This document shows positions 41,858-43,609 of a stretch of DNA of 64,000 nt, piece after piece. The position numbers were made by a program, and so were the translations under genes. The DNA lies in assembly GCA_951406725.2 (NCBI GenBank), contig OX597838.1, positions 9,238,001-9,302,000 of the forward strand, read 5' to 3'. The DNA is from Octopus vulgaris (taxonomy: Eukaryota). The stretch's first letter is position 1; every line of letters starts with the position of its first letter. A model generated the notes under the pieces. That model did not search any database. It was not told the DNA's origin and saw only the letters and a list, made by a program, of their open reading frames with translations.

Positions 41858-42776
41858 TATTATTATTATTATTATTATTATTATTATTATTATTATTATT
41901 ATTATCATTATTATTATTATTATCATTATTATTATTATTATTATTATTATTATTATTATTATTATTATTATTATTATTATTATTATTATTATTATCATCA
42001 TCATTATTATTATTATTATTATTATTATTATTATTATTATTGTTATTATTATTATTATTATTATTATTATTATTATTGTTATTATTATTATTATTATTAT
42101 TATTATTATTATTATTATTATTATCATTATTATTATTATTATTATTATCATTATTATTATTATTATTATTATTATTATTATTATTATTATTATTGTTATT
42201 ATTATTATTATTATTATTATTATTGTTATTATTATTATTATTATTATTATTATATCATTATCATTATTATTATTATTATTATTATTATTATTATTATTAT
42301 TATTATTATTATTATTAGTAGTAGTAGTAGTAGTAGTAGTAGTAGTAGTAGTAGTAGTAGTAGTAGTGGTGGTACATTTATTATTGTTATTATTATCAAT
42401 TTTATTACAGTTATAGGTTAAATTTCGAACAAATTGTAACCAGGAATCACTGAATTAAAAGCATTGTCAGACAACAGTCAGAAGCAAAACAATAATAAAA
42501 TTTTAAGCCTCCTTCAATAAATATTTCAACCAGATCTTATCATTGTATAAAACATGTCTGTCATTGAAACACCACGAATAAACGAAGACTTCTTTGACCA
42601 CGTACGGATTGATATCTCTTTAAATTATTGACTATCACGAAGATATCGTATAGAATCAGTTTGATGTTCCTGGGGAGAATTACTCATGAGATTTCATGCT
42701 TTGTGGCAATTTTGTGTGTGTGTGTGTGTGTAGTATTAATAAGATAGGATATGGAATGTGTAATAGATTTTATTGA

Positions 42777-42819
42777 GCACAACACGTTTCGACCCGTCGT
42801 TCTGGGTCTCTTCGGGTAC
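42777..42819 (-). ncRNA. type I hammerhead, left arm (U4C core)
   Basis: GTAC-CCGAAGA-GACCCagaacgacGGGTC-GAAAC-gt-GT-T-GTGC. Confidence 0.7.
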
Positions 42820-42961
42820 ATCAATTAAAAAAAAATGTCTCACAAGAGATTTCTTGGGTCGGCTTACGCACCACTCTATTTTCCATCAAATTTGAGATTG
42901 ATGGACGTATAGCAGTGTGTAGGCCGATCCAAGAAATCTCTAGTGGCACTTTTTTATCGAC

Positions 42962-43006
42962 GTACTCGAAGAGACCCAGAACGTCGGGTCGAAACATGTG
43001 TTGTGC
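42962..43006 (+). ncRNA. type I hammerhead, right arm (C3 changed to U)
   Basis: GTAC-TCGAAGA-GACCCagaacgtcGGGTC-GAAAC-atgt-GT-T-GTGC. Confidence 0.6.
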
Positions 43007-43184
43007 TCAATAAAATCTATTACACATTCCATATCCTATCTTATTAATTCTCTCTCTCTCTCTCTCTCTCTCTCTCTATATATATATATATATATATATA
43101 TATATATATATATATATATGTATGTATGTATGTATGTATGTATATATATATATATATATATATATATATATATATATATATAAG

Positions 43185-43350
43185 GTTAATCCAAACGGGA
43201 AAACAGAAAAAACAACAACACAAGGAGGTGGAACAATTAAAGTATTATTATTAGGCGCTCAGGAAAATGGGAAGAAGGAAGGTATGACGTTTCGAGCGGA
43301 GCTCTTCGTCGGAAACATAAGAAAAAGAAAGATCCCGAGGTGGGCGAAAT
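43185..43350 (-). mobile_element. short pLTR-type element in (TA)n, variant hammerhead at 43282-43316
   Basis: GTTT-CCGACGAA-GAGCtccGCTC-GAAAC-GTC-ATAC. Confidence 0.6.
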
Positions 43351-43508
43351 ATATATATACACACACACACATATATATATATATATATATATATATATAT
43401 ATATATATATATATATATATATATATATATATATATAAGAAAAACAAAAAGGAAAACTCGACAGACAGACGTCAGTTTATTAATATAACTCCAGTTTCGA
43501 ACAACGTC

Positions 43509-43609
43509 GATTTCTTATAACCTACAATTGTTTCTATATTCAATTCATTCAAATTACACGATGCATTTCGAAAATAGTAACTTTGAACATTTCGTCAGGG
43601 TTAGAAATC
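43509..43609 (-). ncRNA. type I hammerhead with canonical core and long stem II
   Basis: GATTTC-TAACC-CTGACGA-aATGTTCAA..TTGAATATa-GAA-ACAATTGT-A-GGTTA-taaGAAATC. Confidence 0.8.

What the first reader, a model, noticed from the sequence alone, without database searches (positions are those of the whole stretch)
42735..43609. Ribozyme hotspot: four hammerhead motifs from three unrelated elements within 900 bp
Seen: a second twin-hammerhead palindrome (42735-43048, 5-bp GACCC/GGGTC stem II, unrelated to the 25172 element), a variant-core element (43185-43350), and a canonical hammerhead with extended bulged stem I and a long stem II insertion (43509-43609), each separated by microsatellite. 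Inference: serial insertion into one expanding microsatellite that acts as a landing pad. 43509-43609 is among the best candidates for an active ribozyme.
Basis: partly seen in the sequence, partly recalled or inferred. Interest (0 to 1): 0.7.

Follow-up and report, generated by a model that had tools for sequence, protein, structure and literature searches.

The report
Pile-up of Penelope retrotransposon tail ends
The four ribozyme-like motifs are real, but they are the leftover tail ends of three common jumping-gene families (Penelope-like elements) that likely landed in the same TA-repeat stretch, an ordinary event in this genome, and none is predicted to cut well on its own.

Summary
Four type I hammerhead motifs are present as described (4 seen, 0.0005 per shuffle). 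They are not a ribozyme locus of their own. Each is the 3' repeat (pLTR) of a dispersed Penelope-like retroelement (PLE). B (43183-43348) belongs to a young Neptune-type family whose full-length copies carry this motif on both sides of an RT plus GIY-YIG ORF. A (42735-43048) and C (43438-43714) lie downstream of Hydra-type endonuclease remnants at other copies. The A palindrome is the usual inverted truncated PLE copy. All three end at family 3' termini that abut microsatellite. Such ends occur about once per 14 kb (58 in 800 kb of random DNA), and 2 of 72 other A/B/C loci are also three-family clusters, so the hotspot is modest. C has a canonical core but a 2-bp helix III and no G10.1-C11.1 pair; its long helix II is a family trait, shortened here. 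Both A arms and B have core changes, and A is buried in a 314-nt hairpin. Cleavage is untested and likely weak or dimer-dependent. This matches published PLE biology; the scan noted PLE hammerheads elsewhere in this genome before.

The parts
42735..43048 (.). Element A: two inverted, 5'-truncated copies of the 3' repeat of a Hydra-type Penelope-like family (left arm reads on -, right arm on +); both arms stop at the family's short 3' end
42777..42819 (-). Hammerhead motif A-left: helix I 4 bp, core with U4C, helix II 5 bp, helix III 2 bp with only 2 nt between (family usually 4); predicted cut after 42781
42962..43006 (+). Hammerhead motif A-right: core with C3U and U4C (G8 kept), helix II 5 bp, helix III 2 bp with a 4-nt self-complementary loop; predicted cut after 43002
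43049..43182 (.). Compound microsatellite (TC)n(TA)n(GTAT)n(TA)n joining the 3' ends of A-right and B
43183..43348 (-). Element B: 166-bp 5'-truncated 3' end of a young Neptune-type Penelope-like family, 93-98% identical to the 39 other copies listed
43282..43316 (-). Minimal hammerhead motif B: core with U4C, extra A before helix II (4 bp, G10.1-C11.1), no loop III, helix I with a U.U mismatch; predicted cut after 43286
43349..43437 (.). (TA)n/(CA)n microsatellite between the truncated 5' side of B and the 3' end of C
43438..43714 (-). Element C: 3' end of an old Hydra-type Penelope-like family (68-87% identity to listed copies), ending at the family's short 3' end
43509..43609 (-). Hammerhead motif C: canonical core letters, helix I 5 bp + 3-nt bulge + 6 bp, 57-nt helix II region closed by A.A instead of G-C, helix III 2 bp with a 4-nt self-complementary loop; predicted cut after 43523

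Best explanation
The stretch is a pile-up of truncated 3' ends of three Penelope-like retrotransposon families, each bringing the hammerhead motif built into its terminal repeat, which likely inserted one after another by endonuclease-primed reverse transcription at TA-rich microsatellite. Shown: the three pieces are dispersed repeats; B-type motifs flank intact RT plus GIY-YIG ORFs; A and C lie downstream of Hydra-type endonuclease remnants at other copies; family 3' ends abut simple repeats. Inferred: A and C are older and B landed last in the tract between them; the A palindrome arose by the inversion typical of PLE insertion. From the literature and folding: in full-length elements the motif would cut precursor RNA weakly, as a dimer or with help of the element's protein; these solitary copies are most likely inert passengers.
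For: Repeat families: 614, 3136 and 93 first-look candidates, lower bounds. [quoted passage not shown] A: five copies extend upstream into an endonuclease remnant with Hydra-type features. C: L090 holds, on the same strand about 600 bp upstream of the motif, CxCX5C, no CCHH, CxxC and CxH. 3' ends: (TA)4 starts 93-112 nt after the cut site in 44 of 48 B copies, the other 4 being internal repeats of full-length units; simple repeats start at 43-48 nt (9) or 152-176 nt (20) in 40 A copies and at 76-98 nt (9) or 213-231 nt (5) in 20 C copies; background for (TA)4 in a 30-bp interval is 0.067. Inverted pairs in 3 of 23 A loci and 8 of 25 C loci. Density 58 events in 800 kb; 7 in the window against 4.6 expected, P 0.19. 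PMC4209133 (parts 1-2 of 4 read), PMC8557442 (passages and section 11), PMC11167929 (passages) describe these traits.
Against: No RT was recovered in line with A or C, so their clade rests on endonuclease motifs, and for C on one clean co-linear locus (L090) plus weaker ones; the RT family first tried for C was not linked to it (0 of 9 stretches). No tree was built. A three-family cluster within 900 bp is still uncommon (0 of 48 in random DNA, 2 of 72 around A/B/C copies). No target-site duplication can be read in microsatellite and no empty site was seen, so the order of insertion is inferred from divergence only. 11 of 40 A and 6 of 20 C copies do not end at the two modal positions.
Confidence: 0.88

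Rival explanations
1. A true insertion hotspot: this one microsatellite attracts PLEs far above the genome's norm, each insertion extending the TA tract and drawing the next.
For: 18 of 72 A/B/C loci have another family within 900 bp against 9.4 expected, P 0.004; 5 of 6 neighbours of A lie on its 3' side, three directly behind its TA tail (read by hand); three 3' ends here converge on 43049-43437; the window has 2.1 (TA)5+ tracts per kb against 1.2 at random.
Against: Enrichment is about twofold; 2 of 48 random copies have such a neighbour, below the Poisson figure of 13%; neighbours of C split 5 on the 3' side and 4 on the 5' side; even uniform insertion gives about 400 triplets within 900 bp genome-wide; a Helitron-like end and a SINE-like element follow directly, so this is a general repeat pile-up.
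Confidence: 0.2
2. Motif C (or the cluster) is an active ribozyme kept for a host function, for instance cutting a read-through transcript on the minus strand, where A-left, B and C could pair their helix III halves.
For: C keeps all core letters and its helix I, which only 11 of 24 family copies match as a full pattern; three motifs share the minus strand; the same A and C copies are held by runs of two other organism labels.
Against: Helix III loops differ between the three, so heterodimers would mispair (from the sequence); predicted pairing probability of helix III is 0 and of helix II about 0.15 for C, and 0 for all A helices within the palindrome; A.A at 10.1/11.1 would have been rejected by the criteria of PMC3088659; about 14 nt are lost from helix II; sharing with close relatives is expected of any old insertion.
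Confidence: 0.07
3. The pieces are non-autonomous retrozymes or, for A, a palindromic MITE.
For: Short, non-coding here, type I hammerhead; A is a 314-bp inverted repeat.
Against: No tandem 150-450-bp units; copies extend upstream by variable lengths into PLE ORFs; only 3 of 23 other A loci are inverted pairs, with different centres.
Confidence: 0.03

Closest known systems
Minimal type I hammerheads in pLTRs of metazoan Penelope-like elements (Cervera and de la Pena 2014, PMC4209133; parts 1-2 of 4 read, supplements not seen)
   Same: Type I order, missing or 2-bp palindromic helix III, extra base before helix II (B), mostly solitary copies from truncated elements, dual motifs on opposite strands 100-700 bp apart, thousands of copies, core variants.
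   Different: U4C is the majority state in B (42 of 51 copies, including intact full-length elements); C lacks G10.1-C11.1 (A.A or A.G in most of 24 copies) and has a 57-75-nt helix II region and a bulged, extended helix I. Whether such forms are in that paper's supplements or in Lunse et al. 2017 (not held; recalled only) I could not check.
Neptune-clade PLEs (as defined in Craig et al. 2021, PMC8557442; passages read)
   Same: Single ORF with RT, CX2-5CxxC linker, C-terminal GIY-YIG with internal cysteines, partial tandems, microsatellite targets.
   Different: 3' region of about 3 kb rich in CA repeats and a unit of about 6.2 kb; variant hammerhead core.
Hydra-clade PLEs (Craig et al. 2021, section 11 read)
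   Same: CxCX5C linker, no CCHH, CxxC and CxH around the conserved E and N, hammerhead present, (TA)n insertion; clade already reported from molluscs.
   Different: Only broken endonuclease remnants were recovered; RT motifs RWK and DKT not seen; tail between the two 3' ends is about 120-140 nt, longer than the 30-40 bp cited.
PAc Poseidon element of Anolis (Frangieh et al. 2024, PMC11167929; passages read)
   Same: Two discrete 3' ends defining a tail; AT-rich target; hammerhead in the pLTR, there protein-assisted and dispensable for insertion in vitro.
   Different: Other clade; no biochemical data for the families here.
Metazoan non-LTR retrozymes (PMC7229834 passages; bioRxiv 10.64898/2026.07.22.740005 part 1 of 5)
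   Same: Type I hammerheads of PLE affinity.
   Different: Those are tandem units giving circular RNAs; the pieces here are solitary truncated ends of coding elements.

Membership tests
Type I / minimal hammerhead ribozyme | Core C3 U4 G5 A6 N7 G8 A9 ... G12 A13 A14 A15, U16 H17 | tested here: inconclusive
   Met by C; U4C in A-left and B; C3U plus U4C in A-right. PMC3088659 (passages) says U4C lowers activity in vitro but is tolerated in a viroid.
Type I / minimal hammerhead ribozyme | Helices I and II flank the core, with G10.1-C11.1 | tested here: inconclusive
   Met for A; B has a U.U mismatch in helix I; C has A.A at 10.1/11.1. Family C consensus folds helices I and II but with no covariation term (0.01; 2 of 21 pairs with a double change).
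Type I / minimal hammerhead ribozyme | Short, self-complementary helix III region allowing dimers | tested here: met
   All four form self-duplexes of 4-10 bp, -3.1 to -8.4 kcal/mol.
Type I / minimal hammerhead ribozyme | Match to Rfam hammerhead models at gathering score | tested here: not met
   Best 14.4 bits against 34.
Type I / minimal hammerhead ribozyme | Self-cleavage after H17 | not testable with these tools
   Needs in vitro assay or raw RNA reads; only contigs were served.
EN+ Penelope-like element | pLTR with hammerhead on both sides of an ORF with RT and C-terminal GIY-YIG | tested here: met
   Family B in L147-149, L153-155. For A and C only the endonuclease-to-pLTR half was seen.
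EN+ Penelope-like element | Variable 5' truncation, inverted truncated copies, optional tail | tested here: met
EN+ Penelope-like element | RT phylogeny within PLEs | not tested
   No reference PLE proteins were on hand; no tree built.
Neptune clade (element B) | CX2-5CxxC linker plus CCHH-type endonuclease, DKG motif | tested here: met
   Read in the L085, L147 and L154 ORFs. Nematis shares the linker and was not excluded by a tree.
Hydra clade (elements A, C) | CxCX5C linker, no CCHH, CxxC and CxH motifs | tested here: met
   C: all in one frame of L090. A: CxxC and CxH in L108 and L119; CxCX5C read by me from the L105 DNA printed, damaged in the other copies.
Hydra clade (elements A, C) | RWK and DKT motifs in the RT | not tested
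   No co-linear RT recovered for A or C.
Neptune / Hydra clades | Insertion at (TA)n microsatellite | tested here: met
   44 of 48 B, 29 of 40 A, 14 of 20 C copies end at simple repeats at modal positions.
Non-LTR retrozyme | Tandem 150-450-bp non-coding units | tested here: not met
MITE / foldback DNA transposon (element A) | Fixed terminal inverted repeats in most copies | tested here: not met
   3 of 23 other loci are inverted pairs.

The most novel reading that the evidence does not exclude
Family C defines a distinct structural subtype of PLE hammerhead, with a purine-purine pair in place of G10.1-C11.1, a roughly 70-nt helix II and a bulged long helix I, that still cleaves; together with the U4C core fixed in the currently active Neptune family and an abundant A6U family, it shows PLE hammerheads exploring core states thought to be near-lethal, because the element's protein rescues them. 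PLE 3' ends would also seed TA tracts that draw further insertions, a feed-forward route to this genome's microsatellite load.
Probability: 0.2. Interest if true: 0.5.

Novelty: new member of a known kind. Interest (0 to 1): 0.22.

Why it matters
As a locus it matters little: it is one of likely hundreds to thousands of such clusters among roughly 200,000 hammerhead-bearing PLE ends estimated for this genome. Its use is as a warning for scans (hammerhead clusters and twin palindromes in microsatellite-rich animal genomes are PLE debris) and as a pointer to families with unusual cores, which could test how far PLE hammerheads are still under selection to cut.

Tried and rejected
Rfam at gathering and E-value thresholds gave no hammerhead call. 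A peptide-like stretch just upstream of motif C looked like an endonuclease end but is 3' UTR. The RT fragment in L090 on the + strand belongs to another family: 0 of 9 stretches around its relatives held C. The Neptune remnant behind L015 is a separate insertion downstream of A. A's long tail is not elsewhere near the cluster, so the short ends are natural ends and not a split by B. Run search: no RNA holder listed. Four runs guessed to be RNA showed only short contigs on the B motif and the Helitron-like end, both multi-copy, so nothing on this locus. Four DNA-type runs gave no contig joining across a whole element, and microsatellites were skipped, so presence/absence of B was not testable. 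A rewired (non-circularly permuted) hammerhead, as in earlier notes of the scan, is not needed: all four motifs read in standard type I order. Lunse et al. 2017 was not held by DOI or PMC id; what I say of it is recalled or from the review PMC6765202 (passages). Search 'hammerhead ribozyme' + 'octopus' gave 5 papers, none on these motifs by title and abstract start; PMC13282606 has 0 occurrences of hammerhead or ribozyme in its main text. That does not show the families are absent from repeat libraries or supplements, which I did not see. The random sample came from 20 contigs whose lengths I knew, not all contigs.

Full report
Setting. The window is G000:C25:9238001-9302000 of a 2.8-Gb animal genome, 35% GC and crowded with microsatellites. 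That it is an octopus-like genome is my recall-based guess; no call names it.

Observation. The four motifs are there. A-left (minus, cut after 42781) and A-right (plus, cut after 43002) share a 5-bp helix II and sit in a 314-bp inverted repeat whose arms are identical at 87 of 93 columns around the motif. B (minus, cut after 43286) is a minimal motif. C (minus, cut after 43523) has a canonical core, a bulged helix I and a 57-nt helix II region. A descriptor written to accept all four finds 4 here against 0.0005 per shuffle. A, B, C and the 25172 element share no DNA similarity. Rfam does not recognise them.

What the pieces are. Each is a dispersed repeat. B copies are 93-98% alike, variably 5'-truncated and share one 3' end followed by (TA)n (44 of 48; the other 4 are internal repeats). 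Walking upstream from a 98% copy reaches an ORF with RT, a CX4CxxC linker and a GIY-YIG domain. A search with that domain gave 15,895 first-look candidates, the 150 scored being 95-100% alike. In six stretches picked for long ORFs or tandem spacing, B-type motifs stand about 6 kb apart around ORFs of 883-1008 aa, and three more have one downstream. The full-length units are a sister subfamily, 81-90% alike to this copy over the repeat. This is the pLTR-ORF-pLTR build of Penelope-like elements, with Neptune-type motifs as defined in PMC8557442. A copies are mostly single arms that run on in both directions; five extend upstream through a microsatellite-rich UTR into a broken endonuclease with Hydra-type motifs. 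For C, a protein remnant beside one copy led to L090, where CxCX5C, a GIY-YIG-like core without CCHH, CxxC and CxH lie about 600 bp upstream of the motif on the same strand. No RT was recovered in line with A or C, and no tree was built, so those clade labels rest on motifs. Inverted pairs occur at 3 of 23 other A loci and 8 of 25 C loci; PMC8557442 and PMC4209133 describe both the inverted truncated copy and opposite-strand dual motifs as typical. A and C each have two 3' ends (about 45 and 165 nt, about 80 and 225 nt after the cut site), like the PLE tail traced to two reverse-transcription starts in PMC11167929; both A arms and C here stop at the short end.

Is it a hotspot? Eighty random 10-kb stretches from 20 contigs hold 28 descriptor matches (shuffles 0, 1, 0) and, by homology to ten motif families, 66 hits in 58 events, one per 14 kb, about 200,000 genome-wide. 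The window has 7 events against 4.6 expected (P 0.19). In the random sample 2 of 48 events have another family within 900 bp (Poisson 13%) and none has two. Around A, B and C copies, 18 of 72 have one (9.4 expected, P 0.004) and 2 of 72 have two (0.7 expected; L034, L060). Loci fetched twice were dropped before counting (3 for A, 4 for C). So there is mild clustering, in line with a shared (TA)n target, and triplets recur; uniform insertion alone gives about 400. At this site the 3' ends of A-right, B and C converge on 43049-43437. B, the least diverged, has TA on both sides and likely came last. Contigs from runs of two other organism labels carry the same A centre (5 differences in 251 and 273 nt) and C copy (0-2 differences in about 95 nt), so both are old and shared; nothing could be said on B. 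C's 5' side abuts a very high-copy element whose end looks like a Helitron (hairpin plus CTAG; label recalled), so one ancestral tract is not shown.

Are they active? Untested. In family A, 19 of 48 copies have the canonical core and 35 of 48 keep G10.1-C11.1 with intact GAAA; the two copies here have U4C and C3U+U4C. Any transcript across A folds into a -212 kcal/mol hairpin in which all hammerhead helices have probability 0; the isolated left arm forms helices I and II well but has only 2 nt for loop III. B has U4C in 42 of 51 copies, with older copies canonical, and a U.U mismatch in helix I in its subfamily. C keeps the core, but the family closes helix II with A.A or A.G (18 of 24), its helix II region is 62-75 nt in the 10 other copies matching the full pattern against 57 here (about 14 nt lost), and the monomer is predicted to form helix II at about 0.15 and helix III at 0 (the model ignores Mg2+ and tertiary contacts). 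The family alignment folds helices I and II with no covariation support. PMC4209133 reports no cleavage for a single minimal motif and low cleavage for dimers; PMC11167929 reports protein-assisted cleavage that is dispensable for insertion; PMC3088659 treats mispairs at 10.1/11.1 as grounds for rejection while noting active exceptions. C is the most intact of the four, but not a strong candidate as a monomer.

Mechanism. Shown: family membership, ORF linkage, fixed 3' ends at microsatellite, density. Inferred: endonuclease nicking at TA-rich DNA, reverse transcription from one of two starts in the pLTR, early stop or inversion, leaving short hammerhead-bearing ends; A and C first, B later. From the literature: weak, dimer- or protein-dependent cleavage in full-length transcripts.

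Verdict. Real motifs, known kind: new families of PLE hammerheads in an ordinary pile-up. Earlier notes of the scan report PLE hammerheads and palindromes elsewhere in this genome (unchecked, none near this site or like C). The residual interest lies in the variant cores, which I could not compare with supplements or with Lunse et al. 2017. Interest 0.22.

Noticed in passing
window 39949-39976 (-) and 8972-9059 (+); many random loci: The most abundant hammerhead-like repeat end in the random sample (27 of 66 hits) has U at core position 6 in 16 of 18 pattern matches while position 7 takes all four bases (5/5/3/3), with a 4-bp helix I; this looks like selection on an A6U variant core.
   Followed up: partly
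window 33617-33721 (-): Second copy of family B, from a subfamily with a perfect 4-bp helix I and GUU site.
   Followed up: partly
window 25172-25357: Another twin inverted hammerhead-like element between (TA)n tracts; 9 hits in the random sample; no DNA similarity to A, B or C.
   Followed up: partly
window 43714-about 43990 (-) and about 43990-44200: Very high-copy element ending in a hairpin plus CTAG (Helitron-like, label recalled), followed by a SINE-like repeat (recalled).
   Followed up: no
L147-L149, L153-L155 (e.g. G000:C10:97805500-97825499): Intact tandem Neptune-type elements with 883-1008-aa ORFs and near-identical copies genome-wide: a recently or still active family.
   Followed up: partly
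L201:4726, L240:1520, L199:6321-6388: Other hammerhead-like families that also lack G10.1-C11.1 (A.A or A.C closing helix II) and have 4-nt palindromic loop III.
   Followed up: no
window 12951-13610 (-): Isolated 28S rRNA fragment, degenerate at one end.
   Followed up: no
L001, L002, L008: In three A palindromes one arm has core UCG and the other CCG or CCA at positions 3-5, as if the two arms came from different templates.
   Followed up: no
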